64,000 nt of DNA from Vicinamibacterales bacterium (GTDB taxonomy: Bacteria > Acidobacteriota > Vicinamibacteria > Vicinamibacterales > UBA2999). The stretch covers positions 14,573 through 78,572 of the forward strand of contig JBOGIW010000612.1 of assembly GCA_050748045.1 (NCBI GenBank), in the 5' to 3' direction. This document shows, piece by piece, positions 3-41,053 of the stretch. Within the stretch, counting starts at the first letter, position 1. Every line of letters starts with the position of its first letter. The translations under genes and the position numbers were made by a program. The notes below the pieces were generated by a model. That model was not told the DNA's origin. It was given only the letters and a program-made list of their open reading frames with translations, and searched no databases.

Positions 3-305
3 TTCGTCGCGCTGCCGGGCGGACTGGGAACGCTCGACGAGCTCTTCGAGATTCTGACGCTCATCCAGACCGAAAGGATCGCGCGTCTTCCCGTCGTCCT
101 GCTCGGCACCGAGTACTGGAGCCCACTGCTGACCGTTCTTCGCGGCATGGCGGCGGCAGGCACGCTCGACCGGTCCGATCTGGATCACATGTATCTCACC
201 GATGATGTGGCGGCCGCCGTCGGGCACATCGTGACCGGCACGGCCTCGCGCACCGTGCCCGCAGGACGCGTCTCACCATGGGCCGATCCGTCCATCGCGA
301 CGTAA
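3..305 (+). CDS. LOG-family (TIGR00730-like, 'lysine decarboxylase-like') protein, C-terminal fragment; the 5' end lies outside the window
   Basis: Frame-3 translation from base 3 reads [40 protein letters not shown]. This is the PGGxGTxxE region typical of LOG/YvdD proteins. The frame stays open to TAA at 303-305. Confidence 0.75.
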
Positions 306-1531
306 CCCTGGCCTCGACGATGGCGATGGGCGTCCTCGATCGCTGGGAGCACACCGACCTCGCGCAAACGATCTTCACGCGCTCCGTCGAGTGTTGGGGT
401 GAGGACCGGGCGGTCGTCCTGCTGGGTCGATCGCCGGCGATCGTCGGGGCGCAGCAGCGGCTCATGCAGTGCACGCATACCGACGGCGCCGCGCTCATCA
501 CCGGGGAGACGGGGTCGGGCAAGGAACTGTTTGCGCGCGGTCTATACCTGATGTCGCGCCGGTATGGGCGCCCGTTCGTGTCGATCAATTGCGCTCAGTA
601 CCTCGACAGCCAACTGCTGGCGAGCGAGCTGTTCGGGCACACGAAAGGAAGCTTCACCGGCGCGATTGCCGATCGCCGCAGCATGTTCGAAGAGGCGCAG
701 AGCGGCGTCATCTTCCTCGACGAGGTCGCCGAGCTCTCGCTCGCCGCCCAGGCGATGCTCCTGCGGGTCCTCGGCGAAGGCGAAATCGTGCGCGTGGGAG
801 AAAACCGCCCGCGGCGCGTCGACGTGCGCACGGTCGCCGCAACGGCCGTCGATCTGGAGCAGGCCGCCGCCCGCCGGGGCTTTCGCGAAGATCTGTTCTA
901 CCGCCTGCGCGGCGTACGACTCAGGATTCCGCCCCTGCGCGAGCGCGACGACGACTGGAGGGTGATCGCCGATTACGCGCTCCACGCGCTGAACACGCGC
1001 TACTCGGTGGTCAAGCGTTTCTCGGCTGCGTCGCTGCGGATTCTCGAGGGCTACTCGTGGCCGGGGAACATTCGAGAGCTCAAGAGCATCGTCGAGCAGG
1101 GGTTCTACATGAGCCGCGGCCAGCTCATCGAGCCGGCCGACTTCGCCGCCGATCTCAATCTCGACGCTTCCGGCGACACCGCTGGCGCCTCGACGAGCGC
1201 CGACGTCCGGCACGACGAGGGTGGCGACGTTACGCCGACCCAGGCGGAGCATCTCTACGCGCGAATTCGACGATGGGGCCTGACGTTCTGGGATGCCGTG
1301 CACCGGCCGTACCTGAACCGCGAGCTCAATCGCCGGGAAGTACAGGCCATCCTGGCCGCTGGTCTTCGCGAAACGCAGGGCAGCTACAAGCGACTCCTGC
1401 CGCTCATCGGGCTCGACGCGACGGAGTACGTGCGGTTCATGGATTTCCTGCGGCATCACGCGCTCAAACCGCCGCGCCGGGACGTTGCGTCCGGATCGCC
1501 CGATTGCATGCTGACGGAACGACGCCCGTGA
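278..1531 (+). CDS. Sigma-54-dependent transcriptional activator (AAA+ bEBP) with almost no N-terminal sensor domain
   Basis: Walker [31 protein letters not shown] (ESELFGH/GAFTGA motifs), Walker [29 protein letters not shown]-terminal helix-turn-helix-like tail. Only ~50 aa precede the AAA+ core. An alternative start is ATG 320, since the 278 start overlaps the upstream gene. Confidence 0.85.
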
Positions 1532-1556: not shown

Positions 1557-3134
1557 ATGCAGATGATCGCGCACCGCTCCGGTCTCGCGCGCCGCTCGCG
1601 AACGCTCGCCTTCCGCGCCACGCCTGCGGCGGCGTGCCTGGTCGCGCTGTCGGCAGCCGCCGGCGCGCAGGGGACGGCGACGCTGTCCCTCGAGCACGTG
1701 TTCACGGCATTGCTTCAGCACAACCCCGATATCGCGAAGGCCCAGGCGAGCGTGGACGTGGAGCGCGGTGCGCTCGTGCAGGCACGGTATCCGTTCGACC
1801 TGCGTCCGCGGGCGGCGCTGACGAACAGCCGCACGGTGCAGAGCGCGAACAGCGACGTCACACAGGCGGTGCCGTCATACGTCACGCTGGCCAGTCGGAC
1901 GAAGCTCGAGCTCACGAAGCTCTTTCGCTCGGGCATTCAGGTGGCTTCCGAGCTCGCCGTCGAGCGCACTTCGCCGGCCGAGCTCGGGGGGCCCACGCTC
2001 AACCGCCTCATCGCCGACGCCAGCGTGACTGTGCCGTTGATGCAGGGACGCGACGGCGGCCTGTTGGCGGCCGTGGAGCACGCCGCGGCCAAGAGCCATG
2101 CCGCCGCGAGGCAGACCCTGCGCTCCACGGCCGGAGCGGCGCTGTTCCGGGCCACGGTCGCGTACTGGGAGTATGTCGCCGCATTCCAGCGCGCCGCCAT
2201 CCACGGTGCCGCCGCACGCCGGTCGCGGCAGATCGTCGACGAGATCACGATCCTGATTCGCGCCGACGAGCGGCCGCGGTCGGACCTGGATTTGATGGTG
2301 GCCAATGCGGCCTCGAAGCAGGTGGCGCAGCTCCGCGCCGAGCGGCAGATCATCGACGCGCGAACGGCTCTCGCAGGGGCGATCGGGCTCGATCTCGATC
2401 AGGCAGCTACGCTCGCCGACCCAGGCACCGCGTTCCCCGAACAGGACGAGACGCGGCACACGCCTGCGGTCGACGAGATGATACGGGACGCCCTGGCGCG
2501 GCACGACGCGTTGGCGGCGGCGCAGACCCGTCGCGACAGTGCCCGGGCGCTGCGCGACGCCGCGGCGCGCCAGCTGAAACCGCGGGTCGACCTCCTCGTC
2601 GGGGCCGGCTACACGGGCCAGGCCGGTGGCGGCGGAATCGGGCGTCTCTTTCATCCGTTGTTCCACAACACGCTCGGGCCGAACGCATCGGTGCAGCTGC
2701 TGGTGGAGCCATCGGCGATCAACAGCCTCCTGCGCGGCACGCTGATCTCGTCGGACGCCTCCTATGTCCAGGCCGTGACTGCGGCCGACGCGCTCGCACG
2801 CGGCCTCCGCCTCCAGATTGCGAACGCCGCCGAAGGGCTGGCCAACAGCCGCGCGCAGCTGGATCGGACGCAGGAAGCGGTGGATCGCTCGCGCTTGGCG
2901 CTCGCCACCGTCCAGCGCACGTTCGAGCTCGGGAACGCGACACTTTTCGATCGGATTCTGGCCGAGGACACGCTCACGAATGCCGAACTGGCGGATCTCG
3001 GCGCCCGCCAGGAGCACGCGATGGCGCTCGCGGAGCTTCAATCCGCTCGCGGCCTCGTGGTCGAGTGGCGCGACGGCCACTTGGTGGCCGACGCCAGGCG
3101 GGTTCTGCGGGCGTCACGGGGAGACGGCCGGTGA
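1557..3134 (+). CDS. TolC-like outer membrane efflux protein
   Basis: Signal-like N-terminus MQMIAHRSGLARRSRTLAFRATPAAACLVALSAAAGAQG. ~520 aa of Ala/Leu/Arg/Gln-rich repeated coiled-coil-type sequence, as in outer membrane factor proteins. Its stop overlaps (GTGA) the start of the HlyD-like gene. Confidence 0.65.
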   Translation: MQMIAHRSGLARRSRTLAFRATPAAACLVALSAAAGAQGTATLSLEHVFTALLQHNPDIAKAQASVDVERGALVQARYPFDLRPRAALTNSRTVQSANSDVTQAVPSYVTLASRTKLELTKLFRSGIQVASELAVERTSPAELGGPTLNRLIADASVTVPLMQGRDGGLLAAVEHAAAKSHAAARQTLRSTAGAALFRATVAYWEYVAAFQRAAIHGAAARRSRQIVDEITILIRADERPRSDLDLMVANAASKQVAQLRAERQIIDARTALAGAIGLDLDQAATLADPGTAFPEQDETRHTPAVDEMIRDALARHDALAAAQTRRDSARALRDAAARQLKPRVDLLVGAGYTGQAGGGGIGRLFHPLFHNTLGPNASVQLLVEPSAINSLLRGTLISSDASYVQAVTAADALARGLRLQIANAAEGLANSRAQLDRTQEAVDRSRLALATVQRTFELGNATLFDRILAEDTLTNAELADLGARQEHAMALAELQSARGLVVEWRDGHLVADARRVLRASRGDGR

Positions 3135-4393
3135 GTCACACTTTTGCGTTTCGACGGATCGCCCTCGACCGCTTGTCGTCGGCAGACGATCTCGATCGGG
3201 TGCTTCGCGTCACGAGTCCGCGGAGCTGGTTGTTGCTGGCGGCGCTTTGCGGTCTCGTGGCCGCGGTGCTCGTGTGGAGCGTGGTCGCGGTCGTGCCGCT
3301 CAAAGTGTCGGGGCCCGGAATCCTGCTCAAGAGCGGCGGCATTTTCAGCGTCGTGTCGACGATCGGCGGCCGCGTGGCGGACGTGTCGGTCGGCGTCGGC
3401 GACACCGTCAAGGAAGGGCAGGTCGTGGCGCGCATTGCGCAGCCGGAAATCGTCGAGCGCCTGCGGGAGGCCCGCATCACGCTCACGAACCTGCGGGAGG
3501 CGCATGCGTTCCTCACGGCCGCCGGCGGCCGCGAGCTGTCGACACAGGAGGCGTCGCTGCGCCAGCAGGCCATGCACCTGGCCGACGCCATCAAGGCCGA
3601 CGAAAGACGGGCGGCGTTCTTTCGCGAGAAGGTCGTCTCCCAGCAGCAACTCGTGGCGGAGGGTCGCCTCGTGCGCCAGACCCTGATCAACACGCTCCAG
3701 GAGCTCGACGCGACGAACGAGCAGATCCGCATGCGTCGCGGCGAGCTCACGAAGATCGAGCTGCAGACGCTTCAGGCGCGATCGCAGCGGCAGGTCAGCC
3801 TGCAGAAGAGCGCGTTCGCGATTCGCGAGGCCGACCACGACGTCGCGCAGCTCGAACGCAGCCTCACCTCGGGCGCCGAGGTGCGATCGCCGTACACGGG
3901 GCGGATCATCGAAATGGCCGCGGAGCAGGGATCGATCGTGAACCGTGGCGAGGTGCTCTTCACGCTCGACCTGACGGGCCGAACGGTTGCGGCCCTCGAG
4001 GCGATGTTGTATGTCCCGGCCAAAGACGGCAAGCGCATCGCACCCGGCATGGTCGTGCAGATCGCGCCCGCCACGATCCGCCCGGAGGAGCACGGGTACC
4101 TGATCGGACAGGTCACATACGTCTCCGACCTGCCGGCCACCGCACGCGGAATGCTGCGCGTGCTCAAGAACGAGGAACTCGTGCGATCGTTGACCGGCGC
4201 GACGCCGCCGCACGAGGTGCGGGTGGATCTCCTTCCCGATCCATCGAGCGCGAGCGGGTACCGCTGGTCCTCCGCTCAGGGCCCGCCGACCAAAGTGCAG
4301 AGCGGAACGTTGTGCGACGCCGCGGTGATCGTCGAGTCGCGCCGCCCGATCGAGATGGTCGTGCCCTTCCTGCAGAGAGCCTCCGGGCTCTGA
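3131..4393 (+). CDS. HlyD-family membrane fusion protein, NHLM/NHLP bacteriocin-system secretion type (TIGR03794-like)
   Basis: Single N-terminal TM (SWLLLAALCGLVAAVLVWSVVAV), lipoyl-like hairpin (GGRVADVSVGVGDTVKEGQVVARI), long coiled coil. GTG 3131 was chosen because the upstream part of ORF 1634..4393 is the out-of-frame shadow of the TolC-like gene. Confidence 0.8.
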   Translation: MSHTFAFRRIALDRLSSADDLDRVLRVTSPRSWLLLAALCGLVAAVLVWSVVAVVPLKVSGPGILLKSGGIFSVVSTIGGRVADVSVGVGDTVKEGQVVARIAQPEIVERLREARITLTNLREAHAFLTAAGGRELSTQEASLRQQAMHLADAIKADERRAAFFREKVVSQQQLVAEGRLVRQTLINTLQELDATNEQIRMRRGELTKIELQTLQARSQRQVSLQKSAFAIREADHDVAQLERSLTSGAEVRSPYTGRIIEMAAEQGSIVNRGEVLFTLDLTGRTVAALEAMLYVPAKDGKRIAPGMVVQIAPATIRPEEHGYLIGQVTYVSDLPATARGMLRVLKNEELVRSLTGATPPHEVRVDLLPDPSSASGYRWSSAQGPPTKVQSGTLCDAAVIVESRRPIEMVVPFLQRASGL

Positions 4394-4417: not shown

Positions 4418-6634
4418 ATGCGCTTCGAAAGCCGACGTCCGTCTTTGCCGCCGTTCTGCCGGCGCTCCCGCGCGCCCCGACATCCGCGCGTGCGCGTGCC
4501 CTCCGTGCTGCAGATGGAAGCGGTGGAATGCGGCGCCGCGTCGCTGGCCATGATCCTCGCGCACTTCGGCCGCGTCGTGCCGCTCGAAGAGCTCCGCGTG
4601 GTCTGCGGCGTCTCGCGCGACGGCAGCCGCGCGCACAATATCCTCCGCGCGGGGCGGAGCTATGGGCTCCTCGGCAAGGCCTATCGCAAGGAGGTAGCCG
4701 ACCTGCGCCGAATCCCCACGCCGCTCATCGCGCACTGGAATTTCAACCACTTCCTCGTGATCGAGGGATTTCGCGGCAAGAAGGTATTCCTCAACGACCC
4801 CGCAACCGGCCCGCGGACCATCCGCGAGACCGAGCTCGACGCATGCTTCACCGGCGTGGTGCTCTCGTTCGATCGCAGTCCGACCTTCGAGGGCGGCGGG
4901 CAGCGGCACAGTGTCCTGCGCGCGCTCCGGAGGCGGCTCGCCGGCACGTCGCTGGCGCTCGCCTTCCTTCTCGTCGTCGGCCTCCTGTGGATGATGCTGG
5001 TGCTCGTCACACCGGCGTTCCTGACCATCTTCGTCGACGATGTGCTCATCGCCGGCATGCGCGATTGGGCCGTGCCGCTCAACCTCGCGATGCTCCTCAC
5101 GGGCGCCGGCCTCGCGCTGCTGACGTACGTCCAACAGCAGTACGTGTTGCGCCTCGAAACGAAGCTGGCGCTTGCGCAGTCGGCCCGGCTGCTCTGGCAC
5201 CTGCTCACGTTGCCGATCGGCTTCTTTCTCCAGCGCAGCGCCGGTGAGCTCGGCACGCGCGTCGCGGTGAACGAACGCATCGCGCAGGTCCTGTCGGTGG
5301 AGCTGGCGTCCGGCCTGCTCGGCGTGTGCGCCATCCTGCTGTACGTGACGTTCATGCTGGAGTACGACGCGTGGCTCACGCTCGTCATTCTGTTCACGAC
5401 GGCGCTGAACGTCGTGGCGGTGCAGGGCGCGGCGCGCCAGCGCGTGAACCTCAACCGCCGCCTGTCGCAGGACCAGGGAAAGATGGTCGGGACCGCCATG
5501 GGCGGACTGCAGTCGATCGAGACCCTGAAGGCGATGGGCGGCGAGTCGGACTTCTTCGCGCGCTGGTCGGGATATCAGACCAAGGTCCTCAGCGTTCAGC
5601 AGAGTCTCAAGCTCCAGACCGACCTGCTCGGCCTCGTGCCTCCGCTGCTCACGATGGTCAACACCATCCTCATCCTGGGCGTCGGCGGGCATCGTGTCAT
5701 GGACGGCACCCTCACCATCGGCATGCTCGTCGCCTTTCAGTCCTTCGTCTATCTCGTCGCCGTCCCCGCGCAGCAGGTCGTGGCACTCGGCAACAGTCTG
5801 CAGGAGGCCGCCGGACAGCTGGGACGTCTCGAAGACGTGGTGGACACCGTCCCCGACCCGCAGGTGCGCCTGCCGACGGCGGACGAGGCGACGGGTGGCA
5901 CCGAGAAGCTCGCCGGCCTCGTGGAGCTCAGGCAGGTCACGTTCGGATACAGCCCGCTCGACCCGCCGCTCATCGAGAATTTCAACCTGACGATCAGGCC
6001 CGGCCGCCGCGTGGCCCTCGTCGGTGGTTCGGGATCGGGAAAGAGCACCGTGGCGCGGCTGGTCTGCGGCCTCTACCGGCCGTGGAGTGGAGCGATCGCC
6101 TTTGACGGTGTGCCCCGCACCGAGCGCTCGCACCATGAGCTGAGCCACTCGTTCGCGGTCGTCGACCAGGATATCTTCCTCTTCGAAGGCACGGTCCGAG
6201 AAAACCTGACCCTCTGGGACACGACCGCGCCCGAGGCCGACGTCGTCCGCGCGGCTGCCGACGCCTGCATCCACGACGAGATCATGTCGCGAGCCGGCGG
6301 TTACAACAGTCGTGTGGACGAAGGCGGGCGCAACTTCAGCGGGGGCCAGGCGCAGCGGCTGGAGATTGCGCGCGCGCTCTGCAACAACCCGACCGTCCTC
6401 GTGCTCGACGAGGCGACGAGCGCGCTCGATCCCGCCACCGAACGCACGTTCGACGACAACCTGCGCCGCCGCGGGTGCACGTGCCTCATCATCGCGCACC
6501 GCCTCAGCACGATCCGTGACTGCGACGAGATCATCGTCCTCGAGGAGGGCCGGATCGTGCAGCGGGGCACCCACGACGCGATGAAGAGCGTGCCGGGACC
6601 CTACCAGCGTCTCATCGCCTCGGAGGAGTCGTGA
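4418..6634 (+). CDS. Peptidase-containing ABC transporter (PCAT): C39 double-glycine peptidase + TMD + NBD (TIGR03796-like)
   Basis: C39 catalytic Cys in LQMEAVECGAASLAMILAHFG and His in IAHWNFNHFLVIEG, then NDPATG. Six-helix TMD. Walker A GGSGSGKST, signature FSGGQAQRL, Walker B VLVLDEATSALD. Confidence 0.9.
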   Translation: MRFESRRPSLPPFCRRSRAPRHPRVRVPSVLQMEAVECGAASLAMILAHFGRVVPLEELRVVCGVSRDGSRAHNILRAGRSYGLLGKAYRKEVADLRRIPTPLIAHWNFNHFLVIEGFRGKKVFLNDPATGPRTIRETELDACFTGVVLSFDRSPTFEGGGQRHSVLRALRRRLAGTSLALAFLLVVGLLWMMLVLVTPAFLTIFVDDVLIAGMRDWAVPLNLAMLLTGAGLALLTYVQQQYVLRLETKLALAQSARLLWHLLTLPIGFFLQRSAGELGTRVAVNERIAQVLSVELASGLLGVCAILLYVTFMLEYDAWLTLVILFTTALNVVAVQGAARQRVNLNRRLSQDQGKMVGTAMGGLQSIETLKAMGGESDFFARWSGYQTKVLSVQQSLKLQTDLLGLVPPLLTMVNTILILGVGGHRVMDGTLTIGMLVAFQSFVYLVAVPAQQVVALGNSLQEAAGQLGRLEDVVDTVPDPQVRLPTADEATGGTEKLAGLVELRQVTFGYSPLDPPLIENFNLTIRPGRRVALVGGSGSGKSTVARLVCGLYRPWSGAIAFDGVPRTERSHHELSHSFAVVDQDIFLFEGTVRENLTLWDTTAPEADVVRAAADACIHDEIMSRAGGYNSRVDEGGRNFSGGQAQRLEIARALCNNPTVLVLDEATSALDPATERTFDDNLRRRGCTCLIIAHRLSTIRDCDEIIVLEEGRIVQRGTHDAMKSVPGPYQRLIASEES
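4496..4874 (+). other. C39 peptidase domain of the PCAT (approximate borders)
   Basis: The Cys/His/Asp-region motifs listed above all fall in this span. Confidence 0.8.
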
Positions 6635-9546
6635 TGTCGGTGTCGTCCTCCACCGTGCGCGCCGCTGGTCCGGGCGACGAGGCTGCCCGTTACGCCGCGG
6701 CACGGACGATGCTGCGCGGCGACGGCGGGTGGATCGTTCGCGCCGGCTACGCGGACATATTCGTGTCGCGGCGTGGTGCCAGCGAGTCACCCGGCCGGCG
6801 GCACCATCTGTTTCGCGCCGGCGAGCGATCGATCGTCTTTGGCCTGCCGGAGTCGTCCGACCTGCTGTTCGAGGCGATCGGGACCGAATCCACCGTCCTG
6901 GAGCCGGTCGGGCGCGAATGGATCGATGCGTGCGCGAACGACCCGCAGGCCGTCGCCATGACCCCGCGCGCCGTCGATCGATGGATCGACAATCTCTGCG
7001 AATACGTGGCGGCCGGCGTACCGCCCGCAAATTGCGCGTCCTACACGGCCGGGCAGGAAGCGACGGTCGACGCAGGTGGGTCCGTCCGTTCGGCACTTGG
7101 CGTGACCGTCGTCGAGGTCGTGAGCGGCGAGGCGGCGTTCTGCGGTTACGCGCGTGCGCGGTTGCAAACGGGCGATCTGGTCTCGGTATCGTGGCGCACG
7201 TGGCTGACGGCGACGGCGGAGAGCACGGTTCGGGTGAAGGCACTCGGCGAGGTCGTGAGCCGCGGCGATCTCTGGCGGGCGCTCGATACCCTTCACGAAC
7301 TCGCGGTCGAAGCCGTGCGGGTCCGCCTCGAACACATCCGTCAGGTGGAGCGCGACCGGCAGGGCGCCAAGTCGGTTGCCGCGCAGGCAGCCGGCGCCGG
7401 CGCGCTCGGAGAGATCGCGGCGGCGTTCCGCGAAGCGCCGGCCGAGGCTGTCGCGGCAACGTTCGCCGACGGCGCGGCCACGACGCAGGAAAGGCTGAAC
7501 GCCGCGTGCCGGCTGATCGCCGAGCGCCTGCGCATCCCGTTCGCGGCGCCGTCGACGACAGAGTACCGGACGCTCAAAGATGGCGTGGAGTCCGTGGCCC
7601 GCGCGTCGAGATTCCGCGCGCGGCAGGTGATGCTGACCGACGACTGGTGGCGCCACGACGAGGGTCCGCTCCTCGGCTCGTGGAAGGACAGCCAGCGTCC
7701 CGTCGCCCTGCTGCCTCGGAAGCGCTCGGGGTACGACGCGGTCGATCCCCACGACCGCTCGCGTCGGCCGGTCACGCTTCAGGTCGCCGCGCTCCTGGCG
7801 CCGACCGCATTCACCCTGTACCGTCCGTTTCGACCGGGCCGTGTCGGGGTATTCGAGCTCCTGCGCTTCGGCATGGCGGGATGCACGCGGGAGTTCGCGA
7901 CGATCGTGGCCACGGGTGCGCTTGCCGGCGTAATCGCCACCGGCGTTCCGATCGCAACCGGCGTCCTGATCAACTCCATCATTCCGAGCACGGATCGGCT
8001 GCAGCTCGTGCAGTGGACGGTGCTGCTTCTCGTGGGGGCGGCAGCAAGCGGGATGATCCAGGTCGCGCGCAGCATCTCGCTCATCCGCCTCGAGATGCGA
8101 CTCGCCTACGCCATTCAGTCGGCCGTGTGGGATCGGTTGATCAGCCTCCCCTCGGGCTTCTTCCGGCAATACGCCGCGGGCAATCTGGCCTCACGCGCGA
8201 TGGGGCTCGACAGCGTCCGCCAGACGCTGTCCGGCGCGACGATTCGCGCCGTCCTCGGCGGCGTCTTTTCGGTGTTCAACTTCGCGCTGCTGTTCTTCTA
8301 CGACGTTCGACTGGCGCTCTGTGCGGCGGTACTCGTCGCCACGGCAGTCCTGGTCTTCACCGGCTTGGCGTACTTTCAACGCGTGCAGCAGCGCGAAGTC
8401 GCCGCGATCCAGGCGAAGACGTCGGGGATCATCCTCCAGCTCCTCACCGGCATCCGCAAGCTGCGCGTCGCGGGAGCCGAGACGCGCGCCTTCGCGATCT
8501 GGGCCCGGCTGTTCAGCACGCAGCGACGCGCCCAGCTGCGGATTCGAGGCCTCGCCAACTGGCTGCGCGTGTTCACCGTCTCGTTCCCGCTCGTCGCGTA
8601 TGCGGCCCTCTTCACCGTGATCCTGACGACCCCGGGCGGCGGCGCGATACGCACCGGAGACTTCCTGGCGTTCCTCGCGGCCTTCACCGGTTGCATCGAC
8701 GCGACGATGATGACGGCGACCGCCGCCATCAACGCGTTGTCCGTCATCCCGCAGTATGAGATGTCCCGGCCCATTCTCGATGCGGAGCCGGAGGTCAGCG
8801 CCGGACAGGCGGACCCCGGTCCGCTCAACGGCGACATCACGTGCGACAAGATCGTGTTCCGGTATCGGCAGGAGGGGCCGCCGATCCTGAACGGCTTGTC
8901 GTTCAAGATCAAGGCCGGTGAGTTCGTGGCCTTCGTCGGCCCGTCCGGATCCGGCAAATCCACAGTGCTGCGACTGCTCCTCGGCTTCGAAAACGCCGAA
9001 TCGGGAGCGGTGTACTACGACGGCCGCGACTTCAGAGACCTCGACACCCGCGCCGTGCGCCGCCAGATCGGCGTCGTGCTGCAGAGCGGCCGGCTCATGC
9101 CCGGCGACATCTACACGAACATCGCGGGTTGCTCGTCGGCGTCGATGGACGAGGCATGGGCGGCCACACGGATGGCGGGGCTGGAGGACGACATCAGGCG
9201 CATGCCGATGGGCATGCACACCATGGTCACCGACGGCGGAGGCACATTGTCCGGAGGACAGCGCCAGCGGCTTCTGATCGCTCGCGCCGTTGTCGGCGCG
9301 CCGCGACTGCTGTTCTTCGACGAGGCGACGAGCGCGCTCGACAACCAGACGCAGGCGATCGTCAGTCAGAGCCTCGAGCGCCTGCGCGCCACGCGCGTGG
9401 TGATCGCGCATCGTCTCAGCACCATCGTCAACGCGGACCGGATCTTCGTCGTGGAGAAGGGGATCATCGTTCAAAGCGGCACGTACGACGAGCTCATGGC
9501 GCAGCCGGGGCTCTTCCGGGAGCTCGCCAGCCGGCAGTTGGCATGA
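6631..9546 (+). CDS. Second ABC transporter ATP-binding/permease protein of the NHLM bacteriocin system (TIGR03797-like); long N-terminal accessory domain, no peptidase catalytic Cys
   Basis: ~400-aa N-terminal non-peptidase domain, then TMD. Walker A GPSGSGKST, signature LSGGQRQRL, Walker B LLFFDEATSALD. The start overlaps the stop of the PCAT (GTGATG). Confidence 0.85.
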   Translation: MMSVSSSTVRAAGPGDEAARYAAARTMLRGDGGWIVRAGYADIFVSRRGASESPGRRHHLFRAGERSIVFGLPESSDLLFEAIGTESTVLEPVGREWIDACANDPQAVAMTPRAVDRWIDNLCEYVAAGVPPANCASYTAGQEATVDAGGSVRSALGVTVVEVVSGEAAFCGYARARLQTGDLVSVSWRTWLTATAESTVRVKALGEVVSRGDLWRALDTLHELAVEAVRVRLEHIRQVERDRQGAKSVAAQAAGAGALGEIAAAFREAPAEAVAATFADGAATTQERLNAACRLIAERLRIPFAAPSTTEYRTLKDGVESVARASRFRARQVMLTDDWWRHDEGPLLGSWKDSQRPVALLPRKRSGYDAVDPHDRSRRPVTLQVAALLAPTAFTLYRPFRPGRVGVFELLRFGMAGCTREFATIVATGALAGVIATGVPIATGVLINSIIPSTDRLQLVQWTVLLLVGAAASGMIQVARSISLIRLEMRLAYAIQSAVWDRLISLPSGFFRQYAAGNLASRAMGLDSVRQTLSGATIRAVLGGVFSVFNFALLFFYDVRLALCAAVLVATAVLVFTGLAYFQRVQQREVAAIQAKTSGIILQLLTGIRKLRVAGAETRAFAIWARLFSTQRRAQLRIRGLANWLRVFTVSFPLVAYAALFTVILTTPGGGAIRTGDFLAFLAAFTGCIDATMMTATAAINALSVIPQYEMSRPILDAEPEVSAGQADPGPLNGDITCDKIVFRYRQEGPPILNGLSFKIKAGEFVAFVGPSGSGKSTVLRLLLGFENAESGAVYYDGRDFRDLDTRAVRRQIGVVLQSGRLMPGDIYTNIAGCSSASMDEAWAATRMAGLEDDIRRMPMGMHTMVTDGGGTLSGGQRQRLLIARAVVGAPRLLFFDEATSALDNQTQAIVSQSLERLRATRVVIAHRLSTIVNADRIFVVEKGIIVQSGTYDELMAQPGLFRELASRQLA

Positions 9547-9558: not shown

Positions 9559-10722
9559 ATGACCGCCAGAGTGTTGCTCGTTCTCGCCGGGTTCCTGTCC
9601 TTTCCCGCGTGCGATGCCGGGACGGGAGGAGCCGGCGACGGTGCCGCCGCCGGGCCGATCCTCATCGGCGCGCCGTGGCCGTGGGAAGCGCGAAAGAACC
9701 TGTTGTACGGCCAGGGACTGGACATGGCGCTCGAGGAGATCAACGGCGCGGGAGGGATCCACGGGCGGTTCCTGCAGATCCTTCGTGAAGACGATCGAGA
9801 GACCGTCGATCAGGGACGCATCGTGGCCCAGAAGCTTGCGGCCAATCCGAACGTCGTGGCGGTCATCGGACACCTCCAGTCGTTCATCACGGTTCCCGCG
9901 GCGGCGATCTACGACCTCGCCGGCGTGGCGCTGCTGACGCCCACGTCCACCGATCCAGGGCTCACCGAGCAAGGCTACAAGATGGTGTTCCGCGCCACGT
10001 TCACGGACAGACAGGTGGGCAGTCAGATGGCATCCCTCGCGCTCGCGAGGAAACATCGGCGCGTCGCCATCTATTACATCCGCGACCGGTATGGGCGCGG
10101 CCTCGCGAACGCGTTCGAGGAGACGTTCGGACAGAACGGGGGGCTCGTCATGGATCGCCAGTCGTACGATCCGAGCGGAGCGGCCAACAGCCGTCCGCTC
10201 GCGCAGCTCGTGGACGACTGGAAGGGTCGCGAGCTCGACGCGATCTTCATAGCCGGTGAAGCGCCCCAAGCGGCGCTCTTCATCGCCGAGGCGCACCGCC
10301 GCGGCCTCCGCGTGCCTGTCCTCGGCGGCGACGCGCTCGGCACACCGGAGCTCTTTGCCGTGGACCACAGGTCGGTCGAGGGTGTGACCATTGCCACGCC
10401 GTTCCATCCCGACGACTCGCGGCCCGAGGTCCGCAGGTTCGACGAGGCGTTTCAGCGGCGCTACGGACGCAGGCCCGACACGGCCGCCGCGCTCGCCTAC
10501 GATTCGCTTCGTCTCCTCGCCGAGGGAATCAGGCGCGCCAGGGCCGCCACGCGGGCCGAGATTGGAGCCGGGCTGCGTACGGTGTCGAAGTGGCCGGGCG
10601 TCACCGGTGCGTTTACGTTCGACGAGGCGGGCGATCTCGTGAGCCATCCGCTCGTCACCGCGGTGGCCCGCGATGGACGGTTCGCCTTCGTGCCCAATGG
10701 GGCAGCCGACGCTCACGAGTGA
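9559..10722 (+). CDS. LivK/Leu-Ile-Val-type periplasmic substrate-binding protein, probable lipoprotein
   Basis: N-terminus MTARVLLVLAGFLSFPAC (signal plus Cys). Type-1 periplasmic binding protein pattern: IGAPWP.., VVAVIGHLQS, YKMVFRATFTD, IFIAGEAPQAALFIAEA. Starts 12 nt after the ABC gene. Confidence 0.7.
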   Translation: MTARVLLVLAGFLSFPACDAGTGGAGDGAAAGPILIGAPWPWEARKNLLYGQGLDMALEEINGAGGIHGRFLQILREDDRETVDQGRIVAQKLAANPNVVAVIGHLQSFITVPAAAIYDLAGVALLTPTSTDPGLTEQGYKMVFRATFTDRQVGSQMASLALARKHRRVAIYYIRDRYGRGLANAFEETFGQNGGLVMDRQSYDPSGAANSRPLAQLVDDWKGRELDAIFIAGEAPQAALFIAEAHRRGLRVPVLGGDALGTPELFAVDHRSVEGVTIATPFHPDDSRPEVRRFDEAFQRRYGRRPDTAAALAYDSLRLLAEGIRRARAATRAEIGAGLRTVSKWPGVTGAFTFDEAGDLVSHPLVTAVARDGRFAFVPNGAADAHE

Positions 10723-10781: not shown

Positions 10782-11792
10782 ATGTCACCAACGCCGATTG
10801 ACCTCTCGGCCCATGGCTCCGTTCACGCAACCACCTGGGAGACGACGGGATCGTGTCCACTCGTGCTGCAGCCGGCGGCGGCGTGCAGCGCGAGCGAGTG
10901 GGTTGCCGGCAATCTCGATGCGGTCGAGGCGGCCCTGCACGAGCATGGGGCAATGCTGTTTCGCGGCTTCAGCGAGCGCGAGCAGTCGGGACTCGAACGG
11001 TTCACCAACACGCTGCGTCTCGAGCTGATGCACTATGTCGAAGGCGCCACGCCGCGGAAGCAGCTCGGCGATCACGTCTACACATCCACCGAGTTCCCGC
11101 CAGAACATGCCATCGCGCTCCACAACGAGCTCTCGTACGTGCTCACGTGGCCGATGAAGATCATCTTCTTCTGCGTGACGGCGCCGGAGCACGGCGGCGA
11201 AACGCCGCTGGCCGACGTGCGACGCGTGTACGCGCGAATTCCGCTCGACATCCGGGCGCGATTCGCCGCGAAGGGATGGATGCTCGTCCGCAACTTCGGC
11301 GAGGGACTCGGTCTGACGTGGCAGAGCGCCTACCGTACGACGGACCGGTCGGCGCTCGAGACGTACGCGAAAGAGGCGCGACTCACGCTCGAATGGCGCG
11401 ACGAGCACAGGCTGCGGACGCGGCAGGTTCGTCCGGCGATCGCCCGCCATCCGGCAACGGGCGACACGGTGTGGTTCAACCACGTGGCGTTCTGGCATGC
11501 GTCGAGCCTGGGGTCAGAGTTCCGCGAGCTGCTCGTCGAGGAGTTCGGAGAGGACGGCCTTCCCTACAACACGTATTACGGCGACGGATCGCCGATCGAG
11601 GACTCCGTCGTGGAGCAGCTGCGGGCGGCGTACGACGCCGAAACAGTTGCGTTCCGCTGGCAGCAAGGCGATCTGCTGCTCGCCGACAACATGCTCGTGG
11701 CACACGGGCGACGTCCCTTCGCGGGGCCGCGGCGGATCATCGTGTCCATGGGGCAGCCACACACGCGCGACGACTTCCACGCCGTCGTGTGA
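10782..11792 (+). CDS. TauD/TfdA-family Fe(II)/2-oxoglutarate dioxygenase (SyrP/clavaminate-synthase-like hydroxylase)
   Basis: HNELSY..(H-x-E facial triad), WPMKIIFFCVTAPEHGGETPLADVRRVY, distal His/Arg in DLLLADNMLVAHGRRPF. AGGAG sits 5 nt upstream of ATG 10782. The longer ORF from 10590 has no support. Confidence 0.8.
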   Translation: MSPTPIDLSAHGSVHATTWETTGSCPLVLQPAAACSASEWVAGNLDAVEAALHEHGAMLFRGFSEREQSGLERFTNTLRLELMHYVEGATPRKQLGDHVYTSTEFPPEHAIALHNELSYVLTWPMKIIFFCVTAPEHGGETPLADVRRVYARIPLDIRARFAAKGWMLVRNFGEGLGLTWQSAYRTTDRSALETYAKEARLTLEWRDEHRLRTRQVRPAIARHPATGDTVWFNHVAFWHASSLGSEFRELLVEEFGEDGLPYNTYYGDGSPIEDSVVEQLRAAYDAETVAFRWQQGDLLLADNMLVAHGRRPFAGPRRIIVSMGQPHTRDDFHAVV

Positions 11793-11812
11793 TCGTCCAG
11801 GAGATGACCGCC

Positions 11813-11998
11813 ATGTCCGAGCCTCTTGCCCCCGGCCTCCGGTCGACGACGCCGCGCGTCGACTCGACGACGGCTGATCCGCAGGCGTTGGCGCCGCTCG
11901 CGGCGCGCGACCCGTCCGCCGACGACGGCGAGCTCACCGAAGCCGACCTCGCACGCGTGGTCGGCGGGCTCGATTGGTCGCAGATGCTCCTGCCGTAA
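11813..11998 (+). CDS. Candidate RiPP/bacteriocin precursor peptide: 52-aa leader ending in a double-glycine motif plus a 9-aa core
   Basis: MSEPLAPGLRSTTPRVDSTTADPQALAPLAARDPSADDGELTEADLARVVGG|LDWSQMLLP. The leader end ELTEADLARVVGG resembles the (E)LS/TxxxLxxVxGG cleavage region of Nif11/NHLP and class II bacteriocin leaders. Third-codon positions are strongly G/C, as in the neighbouring genes. AGGAG lies 9 nt upstream. An in-frame ATG at 11804 is an alternative start. Confidence 0.65.
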   Translation: MSEPLAPGLRSTTPRVDSTTADPQALAPLAARDPSADDGELTEADLARVVGGLDWSQMLLP

Positions 11999-12017
11999 GG
12001 CTTAATCCGTTTTTCGT

Positions 12018-12044
12018 CCCCGCGGCCTATGGAACGCCGCGGGG
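12018..12044 (+). promoter_or_regulatory. Perfect 9-bp GC stem-loop 20 nt downstream of the precursor gene (possible attenuator or mRNA-stabilising element; no U-tract)
   Basis: CCCCGCGGC-ctatggaac-GCCGCGGGG read directly from the sequence. It lies in the longest intergenic gap (145 nt) of the left half of the cluster. Confidence 0.45.
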
Positions 12045-12142
12045 CGCGGCGATACAGTAGCGGCCACATCGACCTTCCCTGGACCGCCCCCCACGGTGTC
12101 CATGGCGGAAGCCCGCCCATCGCATCACCCCAGGAGGAGACC

Positions 12143-12382
12143 ATGAGCATCTTCGACAATGAGGAAGACACGACCATCTACAACGTCGTCGTCAACCACG
12201 AGGAGCAGTACTCGATCTGGCCGGCACATCTTCCCGACGTTCTCGGCTGGCGCAAGGTCGGCGTCTCCGGCATCAAGCGCGAGTGCCTCGAGTACATCGA
12301 GCGGGTGTGGACCGACATGCGGCCGCTGAGCCTGCGGCGAAAGATGGAGCAGGACGCGCAGGCCGTGGCGGCGTCACGGTGA
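12143..12382 (+). CDS. MbtH-like protein
   Basis: [45 protein letters not shown], the canonical MbtH signature. GGAGGAG upstream of ATG 12143. Confidence 0.95.
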
Positions 12383-12386
12383 GGCG

Positions 12387-13157
12387 ATGACGTCGCCGTG
12401 GATCGCCCATCGCGTGCAGAAACCGGCCGCGCGCGTCCGCCTGCTCTGCTTCCCGCACGCCGGCGCGGGCGCATCGGTGTTCCGTCCGTGGACCCGCGCC
12501 GCGGATGAGACGCTCGACGTCTGTCCGGTGCAGCTGCCGGGCCGGGAGACGCGCTGGGGAGAGCCGCCGATCGATCGCGTCGAGCCGCTCGTCGACGCGC
12601 TCTGCGATGCGGTGGCGCCGTGCATCGAGGATCGTTACGCGCTCTTCGGCTGCAGCATGGGGGCGGTCGTCGCCTTCGAGCTCGCGCGAGCGCTGCGGCG
12701 GCGGTCGCTTCCCTCGCCGTCGCACCTCTTCGTCGCCGCACGGCGCGCTCCCACGCGGCTGGATCGCCGCGCGCCGATCCACCACCTGTCGGACGCGGAG
12801 CTCGTCCGCCGCATCGGGGCCTATGCCGGAACGCCGGCGGAGATACTCGCGAGTGCGGACGTCATGAGCCTCTATCTCCCGGCGATCCGCGCGGACTTCA
12901 CGCTCTGCGAGACCTACGTCTGCCAGCCCGGGCCGCTGCTCGACTGCCCCGTCAACGTTTTCGGCGGACACCTCGATTCGGAGGTGACGCCCGACGACCT
13001 CGCCGCGTGGCGCGACGTCACCGTGTCGTCCTGCCGTGTGCAGATGTTCGACGAGGGACACTTGTTCCTCCACAGCCAGCAAAGCGTTCTCCTCGACACG
13101 ATAGCGAGCGAGCTGTGGCGCACCGACGCCACGCCGGAACGCGTCGCCGTCGCCTAG
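12387..13157 (+). CDS. Type II (editing) thioesterase
   Basis: RLLCFPHAGAGASVFRPW, GxSxG as LFGCSMGAVVAFELA, C-terminal FGGHLD...DEGHLFL. Confidence 0.9.
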   Translation: MTSPWIAHRVQKPAARVRLLCFPHAGAGASVFRPWTRAADETLDVCPVQLPGRETRWGEPPIDRVEPLVDALCDAVAPCIEDRYALFGCSMGAVVAFELARALRRRSLPSPSHLFVAARRAPTRLDRRAPIHHLSDAELVRRIGAYAGTPAEILASADVMSLYLPAIRADFTLCETYVCQPGPLLDCPVNVFGGHLDSEVTPDDLAAWRDVTVSSCRVQMFDEGHLFLHSQQSVLLDTIASELWRTDATPERVAVA

Positions 13158-26579: not shown

Positions 26580-26599
26580 ACCATCCACAGGACGAGACA

Positions 26600-35765: not shown

Positions 35766-35794
35766 TTCTCGCGCTGACCTTCCGAGGCCGAGCG

Positions 35795-41015: not shown

Positions 41016-41053
41016 CTTCCGTCGCGACCGACGCATCCGTAGGAGTGCCGTGC

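What the first reader, a model, noticed from the sequence alone, without database searches (positions are those of the whole stretch)
11804..11998. Minimal double-glycine precursor: degenerate Nif11/NHLP-like leader end plus a 9-residue core LDWSQMLLP
This 61-aa ORF has coding-like G/C third positions and a well-spaced AGGAG. Its leader ends in ...DGELTEADLARVVGG, followed by only nine residues (core at 11969-11995).

The leader end matches the cleavage-site pattern used by C39-peptidase transporters, and such a transporter with an intact Cys/His site is encoded 5 kb upstream. The N-terminal 40 residues are Pro/Ala/Thr/Asp-rich and look disordered. They do not resemble the helical Nif11 or nitrile-hydratase-like leader domains that normally accompany this exporter family.

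A 9-mer core is very short for a bacteriocin. It could be a heavily tailored small RiPP (hydroxylase and C-methyltransferase are present), a signalling peptide, or a scaffold on which chemistry is done. Gene callers are likely to miss the ORF.
Basis: partly seen in the sequence, partly recalled or inferred. Interest (0 to 1): 0.85.

Follow-up and report, generated by a model that had tools for sequence, protein, structure and literature searches.

The report
Conserved double-glycine peptide in NRPS cluster
The small ORF is a real, conserved gene for a 61-residue peptide whose leader should be cut off by the neighbouring peptidase-transporter to release a 9-residue peptide; what is unusual is that it sits inside a giant non-ribosomal peptide/polyketide gene cluster of an uncultured soil Acidobacterium.

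Summary
ORF 11813-11998 (61 aa, AGGAG 9 nt upstream) ends in ...ELTEADLARVVGG|LDWSQMLLP. The motif alone is near chance level, about 0.5 such patterns expected per window. Conservation is what decides it.

- Four further sequence variants exist in metagenomes, always between the same TauD and MbtH genes.
- Synonymous codon changes are common in the motif. In two lineages the gene lies on the opposite strand.
- The N-terminal ~39 residues are unconserved and predicted unstructured.

The exporter upstream is a full NHLP-type set above curated cut-offs (TIGR03794/03796/03797, plus an outer-membrane factor). Its C39 domain is 55% identical to LahT150, with Cys38/His111/Asp127 in place.

Not supported:
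- Membership of the NHLP or Nif11 families.
- The claim that gene callers miss the ORF; NCBI, JGI and Logan records all carry it.
- TauD as a tailoring enzyme for the peptide. It fits the Asp/Asn modules of the NRPS.

The role of the 9-mer is open: signal, tailored RiPP, or scaffold/hybrid with the NRPS. I rate it a new variant of a known kind, of moderate to high interest.

The parts
11799..11803 (+). Shine-Dalgarno AGGAG, 9 nt before ATG 11813
   Evidence: Read from the sequence. GGAG lies 8-10 nt before the ATG in all four distinct homologues.
11813..11998 (+). Precursor peptide gene: 61 aa plus stop, made of a 52-aa leader and a 9-aa core
   Evidence: GC3 0.89. Exact product in NCBI as MGH9350159.1. 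Homologues P0001, P0128, P0129 and P0124. Synonymous changes dominate in the motif.
11813..11929 (+). Variable N-terminal leader, residues 1-39, rich in Ala/Pro/Asp/Ser/Thr
   Evidence: No conserved columns apart from Met1 and one Leu. AlphaFold2 pLDDT is 54-56 with no secondary structure. Composition.
11930..11968 (+). Conserved recognition segment ELTEADLARVVGG (residues 40-52): Leu-12, Leu-7, Val-4, Gly-2, Gly-1
   Evidence: Invariant E40, L41, D45, L46, V49, G51, G52 in 5 sequences. Predicted helix at 43-50. Matches the 13-residue minimal substrate and the critical positions of LahT150 (PMC6363468).
11969..11995 (+). Core LDWSQMLLP, 9 residues
   Evidence: Core length is 9 in all members. 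L1, W3 and L8 are invariant, with D/E at 2 and S/G at 4.
12019..12053 (+). GC-rich hairpin just after the stop codon (stem CCCCGCGGC/GCCGCGGGG, loop CTATGGAAC). Its function is uncertain.
   Evidence: Fold of -30 kcal/mol but z only -1.6. The loop sequence is conserved in L165. No Rfam match.
4418..6634 (+). NHLP-type export ABC subunit 1 with an N-terminal C39 peptidase domain (residues ~27-154). Cys38 is at 4529-4531, His111 at 4748-4750, Asp127 at 4796-4798.
   Evidence: TIGR03796 scores 1019.8 bits against a cut-off of 853. PF03412. 155 bits to LahT150 (6MPZ), with the triad aligned.
6631..9546 (+). NHLP-type export ABC subunit 2, without a peptidase domain and with a ~286-aa N-terminal extension
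   Evidence: TIGR03797 scores 889.5 bits against a cut-off of 709.
3131..4393 (+). HlyD-type periplasmic adaptor of the NHLP export system
   Evidence: TIGR03794 scores 355 bits against a cut-off of 156.
1557..3134 (+). Outer-membrane efflux protein (TolC-like)
   Evidence: PF02321, E 3.5e-19. The position is conserved in L163.
278..1531 (+). Sigma-54-dependent activator with no N-terminal sensor or receiver domain
   Evidence: PF00158, E 1.2e-55, at residues 49-215. Conserved at the head of the array in L163.
9559..10722 (+). Periplasmic solute-binding lipoprotein (LivJ-like), always found between the exporter and TauD
   Evidence: PF13458, E 2.6e-46. Lipoprotein-type N-terminus ...LSFPAC. 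Conserved in L163, L165 and the P0006 contig.
10782..11792 (+). TauD-family Fe/2-oxoglutarate oxygenase, immediately upstream. Probably an NRPS accessory enzyme rather than a peptide tailoring enzyme.
   Evidence: PF02668. Homologues are widespread in NRPS loci without the peptide. The NRPS has Asp and Asn codes.
12143..12382 (+). MbtH-like protein, immediately downstream (NRPS accessory)
   Evidence: PF03621. Flanks the peptide gene in every homologous locus.
26576..28591 (+). B12-radical-SAM C-methyltransferase of the RiPP-maturation family. A candidate tailoring enzyme, with no proven link to the peptide.
   Evidence: TIGR03975 scores 504 bits against a cut-off of 282. Homologues at 50% identity lie near TauD in the peptide-less loci L128 and L129.
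35792..38359 (+). Lant_dehydr_N-only (small LanB / PEARL-like) protein. A candidate partner, with no proven link to the peptide.
   Evidence: PF04738, E 3.6e-22, with no PF14028 domain. The start is inferred from alignment A4 and the upstream ORF. Homologues occur in peptide-less loci.

Best explanation
ORF 11813-11998 encodes a true double-glycine-leader precursor.

Proposed mechanism, with each step marked as shown or inferred:
1. In this lineage the ORF is translated from its own Shine-Dalgarno site, 20 nt after the TauD stop. It is probably read from the same long transcript (inferred).
2. The first ~39 residues are a variable, unstructured spacer (shown by alignment and model).
3. Residues 40-52 (ELTEADLARVVGG) form a short amphipathic helix. 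Its Leu-12, Leu-7 and Val-4 dock into the C39 peptidase domain of the adjacent NHLP-type ABC exporter (inferred by analogy with LahT150).
4. The peptidase (Cys38/His111/Asp127) cuts after Gly52 (inferred).
5. The ABC1/ABC2, HlyD and outer-membrane-factor assembly passes the 9-residue C-terminal peptide LDWSQMLLP out of the cell (inferred).

The peptide-exporter module comprises the sigma-54 activator, the exporter, a periplasmic binding lipoprotein and the peptide. It is interleaved with, and inherited together with, a large NRPS-PKS cluster.

My leaning for the biological role is an exported, little- or un-modified short peptide that acts as a co-regulated extracellular factor, most likely a signal (about 0.35). 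A C-methylated mini-RiPP is the next most likely role (about 0.25). The confidence given below (0.72) refers to the processing-and-export mechanism, not to the biological role.
For: The gene is real:
- GC3 is 0.89, with a frame switch at the ORF.
- GGAG sits at conserved spacing in all four distinct homologues.
- Independent pipelines have annotated it.

Protein-level conservation:
- Five members share E40, L41, D45, L46, V49, G51, G52, L53, W55 and L60, and all have a 9-residue core.
- Window versus L165: 8 synonymous-only against 6 non-synonymous codon differences in the last 26 codons.
- In L083/L163 and L164 the gene lies on the opposite strand between the same neighbours. So it is the peptide that is conserved, not a DNA or RNA feature.

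The exporter:
- TIGR03794, TIGR03796 and TIGR03797 all score above their curated cut-offs.
- The C39 domain has 73 of 132 aligned residues identical to LahT150 by my count, with the catalytic Cys/His/Asp and the oxyanion Gln aligned.
- LahT150 needs only the last 13 leader residues. It depends on positions -4, -7 and -12, and tolerates changes at -3, -5 and -8 (PMC6363468). That is exactly the conservation pattern seen here.

Co-occurrence:
- Every contig long enough to show it (the window, L163, the P0006 contig, L165) carries the exporter, the binding protein, TauD and the peptide together.
- None of about 160 other TauD-NRPS loci has the NHLP-type exporter set (HlyD adaptor plus C39-ABC pair) or the peptide.

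Other points:
- A separate MacB-type exporter (57930-60374) is available for the NRPS product.
- In the opposite-strand loci a conserved sigma-54-type -24/-12 element lies ~64 nt before the peptide ATG, matching the cluster-encoded sigma-54 activator.
Against: - No cleavage, export or expression data exist.
- The family has only five sequences from three or four lineages, all uncultured.
- The window peptide does not reach any curated double-glycine HMM. TIGR01847 gives no hit for the window and 15.4 and 14.1 bits for two relatives, against a cut-off of 15.7.
- The gene is not next to the exporter. It is separated from it by the binding protein and TauD, and it is embedded among NRPS accessory genes.
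- For the signal reading: there is no sensor kinase in the locus, the activator has no receiver domain, and no sigma-54 promoter lies before the window's own copy.
- RiPP-type enzymes (TIGR03975 radical SAM, Lant_dehydr_N protein) are in the same operon and could act on the peptide before export.
Confidence: 0.72

Rival explanations
1. Carrier (scaffold) peptide or hybrid partner of the NRPS pathway. In one version, the Lant_dehydr_N-only, PEARL-like enzyme (35792-38359) extends the C-terminus of the peptide with an aminoacyl-tRNA. In another, a carrier-protein-bound NRPS/PKS chain is joined to the peptide. Either way chemistry is done on the peptide, and GG cleavage and export then release a 9-mer conjugate.
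For: - A PF04738-only protein without an elimination domain lies in the same co-directional operon. It has a weak PqqD/RRE-like stretch (E 0.82).
- PEARL carrier peptides are 5-10 kDa (PMC11212132); this precursor is 6.3 kDa.
- The PEARL BhaB needs only a C-terminal 12-mer and tolerates any last residue (PMC11962472). That fits a conserved C-terminal region with a variable last residue.
- The core has no conserved Ser/Thr/Cys, so classical dehydration is excluded.
- A weak GNAT-like protein follows an A-T didomain.
Against: - Homologous Lant_dehydr_N proteins sit next to TauD and NRPS genes in loci L079 (two copies), L037 and L004. These loci have neither the peptide nor room for one.
- SnaE, the characterised member from an NRPS-PKS cluster, acts on the NRPS product itself. 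No precursor peptides were found in about 2000 such clusters (PMC11212132).
- The GNAT hit is below threshold, and its structure model was unusable (pLDDT 32).
Confidence: 0.13
2. A heavily tailored mini-RiPP. The core would be C-methylated by the TIGR03975 radical SAM enzyme, and possibly hydroxylated by TauD, before GG cleavage, giving a small antimicrobial.
For: - TIGR03975 scores 504 bits, and NCBIfam names that family a RiPP maturation radical SAM C-methyltransferase.
- The exporter set is the one NCBIfam names the NHLP bacteriocin export system.
Against: - The radical SAM gene is 14.6 kb away. Its start overlaps the stop of an NRPS gene.
- Homologues at 50% identity lie near TauD in the peptide-less loci L128 and L129.
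- The leader lacks the NHLP/Nif11 domain that accompanies this enzyme family.
- TauD homologues are common in NRPS loci without the peptide, and the NRPS has Asp/Asn modules.
- Positions 4-7 of the core differ completely between the two subtypes.
Confidence: 0.25
3. Donor of a modified amino acid for the NRPS, as in rufomycin, where a ribosomal pentapeptide is nitrated and then proteolysed. Here the invariant Trp or Asp/Glu of the core would be modified on the peptide, then released and loaded by an adenylation domain.
For: - There is a precedent for a ribosomal peptide gene inside an NRPS cluster (10.1101/2024.07.12.603347).
- L-[DE]-W is invariant.
- The gene lies among NRPS accessory genes.
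Against: - This reading does not explain the conserved GG recognition helix or the strict co-occurrence with a peptidase-exporter.
- No dedicated cytoplasmic protease was identified.
- None of the six adenylation codes I could read resembles a Trp code.
Confidence: 0.04
4. Chance ORF in GC-rich DNA, or a decayed remnant of a longer NHLP precursor with no function.
For: - The frame is open for 381 codons across the TauD gene.
- The bare motif is expected about 0.5 times per window.
Against: - There is protein-level conservation with synonymous changes, a fixed core length, a conserved ribosome-binding site, and conservation after strand inversion.
- HMM E-values are 1e-15 to 1e-17, against 0.48 for the best unrelated ORF.
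Confidence: 0.02

Closest known systems
NHLP / Nif11-leader precursors with the NHLM export cassette (proteusins, prochlorosins; TIGR03793/TIGR03798 with TIGR03794/03796/03797)
   Same: - The same three-gene exporter, above curated cut-offs.
- The same type of leader end (acidic-Leu-x4-Leu-x2-Val-x-Gly-Gly).
- A TIGR03975 radical SAM C-methyltransferase in the locus.
   Different: - No NHLP or Nif11 domain. The first ~39 leader residues are unconserved and unstructured.
- The core is only 9 residues, single copy, with no Cys and no conserved Ser/Thr.
- The gene lies between NRPS accessory genes inside an NRPS-PKS cluster.
LahT / LahT150 double-glycine protease and its substrates (PDB 6MPZ; PMC6363468)
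   Same: - The C39 domain scores 155 bits, with 73 of 132 residues identical and the triad and oxyanion Gln aligned.
- The substrate determinants Val-4, Leu-7, Leu-12 and GG are all present and invariant in the family.
   Different: - LahT comes from a Gram-positive lanthipeptide cluster. Here the transporter is part of a tripartite diderm system with a second ABC subunit.
- Cleavage was not tested.
Class II bacteriocin and competence-pheromone leaders (TIGR01847 bacteriocin_sig; Pfam ComC PF03047), and the Gram-negative RaxX/RaxB system (10.1101/442517)
   Same: - A GG leader removed by a peptidase-containing ABC transporter.
- The mature product can be a short unmodified signal.
- The mature part diverges between lineages while the leader end stays fixed.
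   Different: - Scores are below threshold: TIGR01847 gives 15.4 and 14.1 bits against 15.7, and ComC gives 12 bits against 20.4.
- The leader is 52 residues, twice the usual length.
- The 9-mer is shorter than known GG-exported signals.
- No cognate sensor kinase is present.
PEARL carrier peptides (TglA, BhaA, AmmA) and the NRPS-associated PEARL-like enzyme SnaE (PMC11212132, PMC11962472)
   Same: - A Lant_dehydr_N-only enzyme without an elimination domain is in the cluster.
- The peptide is ~6 kDa with a conserved C-terminal stretch and a variable last residue.
   Different: - Known carrier peptides are not GG-cleaved or exported.
- SnaE-type enzymes in NRPS clusters work without any ribosomal peptide.
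- Homologous enzymes occur here in peptide-less loci.
BytA-type pentapeptide in the rufomycin NRPS cluster (10.1101/2024.07.12.603347)
   Same: A tiny ribosomal peptide gene embedded in, and conserved with, an NRPS-PKS cluster.
   Different: - BytA has no leader and no exporter. It is modified by a P450 and proteolysed to feed the NRPS.
- The defining features here are a GG leader and a dedicated exporter.

Membership tests
Double-glycine leader peptides processed by C39 (PCAT/AMS) transporters | Gly-Gly (or GA/GS) at -2/-1, immediately before the mature part | tested here: met
   G51 and G52 are invariant in all 5 members.
Double-glycine leader peptides processed by C39 (PCAT/AMS) transporters | Hydrophobic residues at -4, -7 and -12, which are the critical positions in LahT150 mutagenesis | tested here: met
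   V49, L46 and L41 are invariant. The criteria come from PMC6363468.
Double-glycine leader peptides processed by C39 (PCAT/AMS) transporters | Cognate ABC transporter with a catalytically intact C39 domain in the locus | tested here: met
   PF03412 and TIGR03796. Cys38, His111 and Asp127 align to Cys27, His101 and Asp117 of LahT.
Double-glycine leader peptides processed by C39 (PCAT/AMS) transporters | Match to the curated leader model TIGR01847 at or above 15.7 bits | tested here: not met
   No hit for the window peptide. P0124 scores 15.4 and P0128 14.1 bits, just below the cut-off.
Double-glycine leader peptides processed by C39 (PCAT/AMS) transporters | Actual cleavage after GG, and export | not testable with these tools
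   Needs an in vitro protease assay or heterologous expression.
NHLP (TIGR03793) / Nif11 (TIGR03798) precursor families | N-terminal nitrile-hydratase-like or Nif11-like leader domain | tested here: not met
   NCBIfam and Pfam scans of all members list neither model: window peptide and P0001 at E up to 10 (NCBIfam), relatives P0124/P0128/P0129 at E up to 0.1 (NCBIfam) and 5 (Pfam). The N-terminal 39 residues are unconserved.
NHLP (TIGR03793) / Nif11 (TIGR03798) precursor families | Co-located NHLM export cassette (TIGR03794, TIGR03796, TIGR03797) | tested here: met
   Scores of 355, 1019.8 and 889.5 bits, all above their cut-offs. The cassette is conserved in L163.
NHLP (TIGR03793) / Nif11 (TIGR03798) precursor families | A maturase acting on the core, for example the TIGR03975 radical SAM enzyme | tested here: inconclusive
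   The enzyme is present. But it is 14.6 kb away inside the NRPS operon, and homologues occur in peptide-less loci.
PEARL carrier peptides (pearlins) | A PF04738-only ligase without the PF14028 elimination domain in the cluster | tested here: met
PEARL carrier peptides (pearlins) | Peptide and ligase co-occur across related clusters | tested here: inconclusive
Ligase homologues exist without the peptide.
PEARL carrier peptides (pearlins) | ATP- and aminoacyl-tRNA-dependent extension of the C-terminus | not testable with these tools
   Needs biochemistry.
Class I lanthipeptide precursors | Ser/Thr and Cys in the core for dehydration and ring formation | tested here: not met
   No Cys in any core. 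The two opposite-strand members have no Ser or Thr in the core. No elimination or cyclase domain was found.
ComC competence-pheromone family (PF03047) | Pfam gathering score of 20.4 bits | tested here: not met
   About 12 bits, E 0.16-0.19, for two relatives. No hit for the window peptide.

The most novel reading that the evidence does not exclude
The peptide is a working part of the NRPS-PKS pathway rather than a neighbour. It would be the first ribosomal carrier or partner peptide found for the roughly 2000 NRPS/PKS clusters that encode LanB-like (PEARL-like) enzymes and were reported to lack any precursor peptide.

In this reading, the PEARL-like enzyme, or a carrier-protein-dependent transferase, builds or attaches non-ribosomal chemistry on the 9-residue tail. 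The double-glycine exporter then releases a ribosomal/non-ribosomal hybrid.
Probability: 0.13. Interest if true: 0.9.

Novelty: new variant of a known kind. Interest (0 to 1): 0.6.

Why it matters
Double-glycine peptides and their peptidase-exporters are well known. Three things here are not in the curated families.
- The precursor is reduced to the 13-residue protease recognition helix plus a fixed 9-residue product.
- The leader has no NHLP/Nif11 domain, although the exporter is of the NHLP type.
- The gene is stably interleaved with a giant NRPS-PKS cluster in uncultured Acidobacteria. It lies between TauD and MbtH, in either orientation.

If the 9-mer is a signal, it would be a rare peptide-based control or partner of a non-ribosomal pathway in a diderm soil bacterium. 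If it is a substrate of the cluster's PEARL-like or radical SAM enzymes, it would link ribosomal and non-ribosomal peptide synthesis in a new way.

The question is directly testable with a 22-residue synthetic peptide and one 165-residue protease domain. The finding also shows genome miners that precursor genes can hide among NRPS accessory genes and escape RiPP family models.

Tried and rejected
- **Word-indexed protein searches.** Searches with the peptide and with a 3-sequence alignment found only near-identical copies and P0124. The exhaustive profile search was needed to find P0128 and P0129. Its other hits (P0125-P0127, P0130) are long low-complexity proteins that match only the Ala/Pro-rich leader, and I discarded them.
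- **Peptide in other TauD loci.** tblastn, a regular expression and an HMM over 160 other TauD loci found no further members.
- **Sigma-54 promoter before the window's copy.** None found, and the pattern is not enriched in the window. No sigma-70 promoter or terminator lies next to the ORF.
- **Hairpin after the stop codon.** Not better than shuffled sequence.
- **Rfam.** No match in 11600-12400.
- **Lant_dehydr_N protein.** No PDB relative by sequence or by a 3-sequence profile. Only a non-significant PqqD hit appeared.
- **GNAT-like protein 40134-41015.** The single-sequence AlphaFold2 model had pLDDT 32, so I ran no fold search.
- **Walking along the relatives' clusters.** I tried to see whether the radical SAM and Lant_dehydr_N genes are conserved there. 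This failed because the 73-kb JGI contig has no DNA on record and the other contigs are short.
- **A C39 transporter near TauD in Pseudoalteromonas (L071).** It has no such peptide.
- **Does the 9-mer mimic the NRPS product?** The six adenylation codes I could read are Ile/Val-like, Asn, Ser, Gln, Asp and one unknown. They do not mirror the core.
- **TauD against the PDB.** This gave no characterised close relative.
Full report
**1. What is in the sequence**

The window is 68% GC. Positions 11804-11998 translate to MTAMSEPLAPGLRSTTPRVDSTTADPQALAPLAARDPSADDGELTEADLARVVGGLDWSQMLLP*.

That ATG lies 9 nt after AGGAG (11799-11803) and 20 nt after the TauD stop codon. GC at codon positions 1/2/3 is 0.77/0.57/0.89. 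A sliding GC3 plot switches from the TauD frame to this frame exactly at the ORF.

The frame is open from 10853, as is usual in GC-rich DNA, so openness proves nothing. The exact 61-aa product is in NCBI as MGH9350159.1, a hypothetical protein of a Vicinamibacterales (Acidobacteriota) MAG on a 78.7-kb contig. It was also called on a Logan assembly. Gene callers therefore do find it.

**2. Is it more than chance?**

The bare pattern is: hydrophobic at -12, -7 and -4, then GG, then a 5-15 residue tail and a stop. It occurs 15 times among unrelated six-frame ORFs of 166 loci (3.6 million residues). That gives about 0.5 expected per 64-kb window.

**3. Conservation settles it**

Word-indexed protein searches found only a 98%-identical copy (P0001) and P0124. 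An exhaustive profile search of 1.84 billion representatives added P0128 and P0129. The family is:

| Member | Leader end and core |
|---|---|
| window / P0001 | ...GELTEADLARVVGG-LDWSQMLLP |
| P0128 | ...HELTDEDLARVVGG-LDWSQIVLP |
| P0129 | ...GELSEADLEHVTGG-LDWGYGRLD |
| P0124 | ...EELSDADLAQVTGG-LEWGVGRLE |

- Invariant residues are E40, L41, D45, L46, V49, G51, G52, L53, W55 and L60. The core is 9 residues in every member. The first ~39 residues cannot be aligned.
- In the last 26 codons, window versus L165 has 8 synonymous-only and 6 non-synonymous differences. Across the motif itself almost all changes are synonymous. All four distinct genes have GGAG 8-10 nt before the ATG.
- Every copy lies between the same TauD and MbtH genes. 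In L083/L163 (P0124) and L164 (P0129) it is on the opposite strand. Conservation of the protein after inversion rules out a DNA or RNA feature.
- A 26-column HMM hits only these ORFs (E 1e-15 to 1e-17) among 51,210 six-frame ORFs. The next best hit has E 0.48, and there is no paralogue in the window.
- AlphaFold2 with the 5-sequence alignment gives no structure and pLDDT about 55 for residues 1-40, and a helix at 43-50.

**4. Surroundings**

All genes from 278 to 57605 are on the + strand and tightly packed.

| Coordinates | Gene |
|---|---|
| 278-1531 | sigma-54 activator without a sensor domain |
| 1557-3134 | outer-membrane factor |
| 3131-4393 | HlyD adaptor (TIGR03794, 355 bits) |
| 4418-6634 | ABC subunit with C39 domain (TIGR03796, 1020 bits) |
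| 6631-9546 | second ABC subunit (TIGR03797, 890 bits) |
| 9559-10722 | LivJ-like binding lipoprotein |
| 10782-11792 | TauD |
| 11813-11998 | the peptide |
| 12143-12382 | MbtH |
| 12387-13157 | type II thioesterase |
| 13188-20564, 20589-26579, 29767-32634, 38356-40137, 41012-43867, 46597-57605 | about 45 kb of NRPS/PKS |
| 26576-28591 | TIGR03975 radical SAM C-methyltransferase (504 bits) |
| 28619-29770 | 4HPPD/HmaS-like enzyme |
| 35792-38359 | Lant_dehydr_N-only protein |
| 40134-41015 | weak GNAT-like protein |
| 43864-45336 | purF paralogue |
| 57930-60374 (minus strand) | MacB-type exporter |

The same order recurs in L163, whose TauD is 69% identical: activator, outer-membrane factor, HlyD, ABC1, ABC2, binding protein, TauD, peptide, MbtH, thioesterase, NRPS. 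Its second NRPS gene has the identical unusual domain order. The order recurs in part in the P0006 contig and in L165.

Among about 160 other TauD-containing NRPS loci from genomes and metagenomes, none has the NHLP-type exporter set (HlyD adaptor plus C39-ABC pair) or the peptide.

**5. The protease**

The C39 domain scores 155 bits to LahT150 (6MPZ), with 73 of 132 aligned residues identical by my count. Cys38, His111 and Asp127 align with the LahT triad Cys27/His101/Asp117, and Gln32 aligns with the oxyanion Gln (PMC6363468).

For LahT150, the last 13 leader residues suffice. Positions -4, -7 and -12 are critical, and positions -3, -5 and -8 are tolerant. The family shows exactly this pattern: V-4, L-7 and L-12 are invariant, while -3 is V/T and -5 is R/Q/H.

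**6. Mechanism**

- Shown: a real, translated-looking, conserved gene; a complete exporter with an intact peptidase; a leader end that satisfies the known determinants; co-inheritance of the peptide and the exporter.
- Inferred: docking of the helix at residues 40-52 into the C39 groove; cleavage after Gly52; export of the 9-mer through the tripartite system.

The role of the 9-mer is not determined. Points that favour a little-modified exported factor or signal:
- its size and the absence of Cys;
- a core that is fixed at positions 1-3 and 8 but falls into two lineage-specific forms;
- a conserved binding lipoprotein and sigma-54 activator in the module;
- a conserved sigma-54-type element (TGG[CT]CCACG[TA]TTTGC) about 64 nt before the peptide ATG in the two opposite-strand loci. 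It is the only match to that pattern in either locus.

Points against a signal: no sensor kinase, an activator without a receiver domain, and no such promoter before the window's own copy.

**7. Candidate tailoring enzymes**

- **TauD.** It belongs to a family with more than 580 relatives in NRPS loci. The NRPS has Asn (DLTKVGEVG) and Asp (DLTKVGHVG) codes. From general knowledge of SyrP-type hydroxylases, it is most simply the beta-hydroxylase of those modules.
- **TIGR03975 radical SAM enzyme and Lant_dehydr_N protein.** These are RiPP-type families, but both are embedded in the NRPS operon. Both have homologues next to TauD in loci without the peptide: L128 and L129 for the radical SAM enzyme, and L079 (two tandem copies), L037 and L004 for the Lant_dehydr_N protein.
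- **Literature context.** Yu and van der Donk showed that such an enzyme (SnaE) ligates an amino acid to an NRPS product. They found no precursor peptides in about 2000 such clusters (PMC11212132). A link to the peptide is therefore possible but not needed.

The carrier-peptide reading stays open. PEARLs recognise a C-terminal ~12-mer and tolerate any last residue (PMC11962472). The rufomycin BytA case shows that ribosomal peptides can serve NRPS pathways.

**8. Comparison with known families**

It works like a double-glycine precursor of the NHLP/Nif11-exporter world. However, it fails membership of NHLP and Nif11 (no domain), it falls just below the generic bacteriocin-leader model, and it is not ComC or a lanthipeptide precursor. 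JGI's automatic name for P0124, 'bacteriocin-like protein', agrees with the general class.

I file it as a new variant of a known kind: a minimal-leader, 9-residue-core double-glycine peptide family tied to an acidobacterial NRPS-PKS cluster.

**9. Limits**

- There are five sequences from three or four uncultured lineages.
- There are no expression or chemistry data.
- The relatives' contigs are too short to test co-inheritance with the radical SAM and Lant_dehydr_N genes.
- The structure model of the GNAT-like protein was unusable.

Noticed in passing
window 35424-35765 (+): A 113-aa ORF (NCBI hypothetical MGH9350169.1) with coding-like GC3 and one hydrophobic stretch. It contains ...EPMLDWEMLMLLDE..., which resembles the 9-mer core LDWSQMLLP. 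LDW alone is expected by chance, so this may mean nothing. The ORF also implies that the Lant_dehydr_N gene starts near 35792 rather than 35555.
   Followed up: partly
L083 11272-11286 (-) and L164 1237-1251 (+): A conserved sigma-54-type -24/-12 element (TGGCCCACGTTTTGC / TGGTCCACGATTTGC) lies about 64 nt upstream of the peptide start in the two loci where the gene is inverted. It is the only match to the pattern in each locus. The cluster encodes a sigma-54 activator.
   Followed up: partly
window 35792-38359; L079 3405-5987 and 6048-8687; L037 1-756; L004/L085 20212-20937: Lant_dehydr_N-only (PEARL-like) genes recur next to TauD and NRPS genes in several Acidobacteria, twice in tandem in L079, with no elimination domain and no precursor peptide nearby. 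The window protein has a PqqD/RRE-like stretch (LALCDGERSAREIA), but the PDB hit is not significant.
   Followed up: partly
window 26576-28591; L128 6297-7463; L129 2860-4779: The start of a RiPP-family radical SAM C-methyltransferase (TIGR03975) overlaps the stop of an NRPS gene. Homologues at 50% identity sit 1.8 kb from TauD in unrelated, lower-GC loci without the peptide. This family may therefore also serve NRPS pathways.
   Followed up: partly
window 11999-12142; L165 3301-3437: The spacer between the peptide gene and MbtH has conserved blocks: CTATGGAAC in a hairpin loop, TACAGTAGCG, and GTGGCGGAAGCCCGC. GGCGGAAGCC is also found upstream of MbtH in the inverted loci. There is no Rfam match, and the function is unknown.
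   Followed up: partly
L002 (GCA_050725555.1, contig JBOHHQ010001484.1, 1552 bp): A near-identical copy of the TauD-peptide-MbtH segment (peptide 98% identical; 97% nt identity over its last 26 codons) is binned in a MAG labelled Gammaproteobacteria, while the window contig is labelled Vicinamibacterales. The short contig is probably mis-binned.
   Followed up: no
window 38356-40137 and 29767-32634: The A-T didomain at 38356 lacks the conserved Asp235 of amino-acid-activating adenylation domains (code AGWSIGIYC), so it probably loads a non-amino acid. The A-T protein at 29767 carries a ~440-residue insert with a class I methyltransferase motif (VVDVGTGAD).
   Followed up: no
window 43864-45336: A purF (amidophosphoribosyltransferase) paralogue, TIGR01134 at 438 bits, lies inside the biosynthetic operon. 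It is followed by a formamidase-like gene whose ORF overlaps it by about 370 nt, so the true start of that gene is unclear.
   Followed up: no
window 6631-7490: The second ABC subunit (TIGR03797) has a ~286-residue N-terminal extension with no Pfam or NCBIfam match. It is 45% identical in L163.
   Followed up: no
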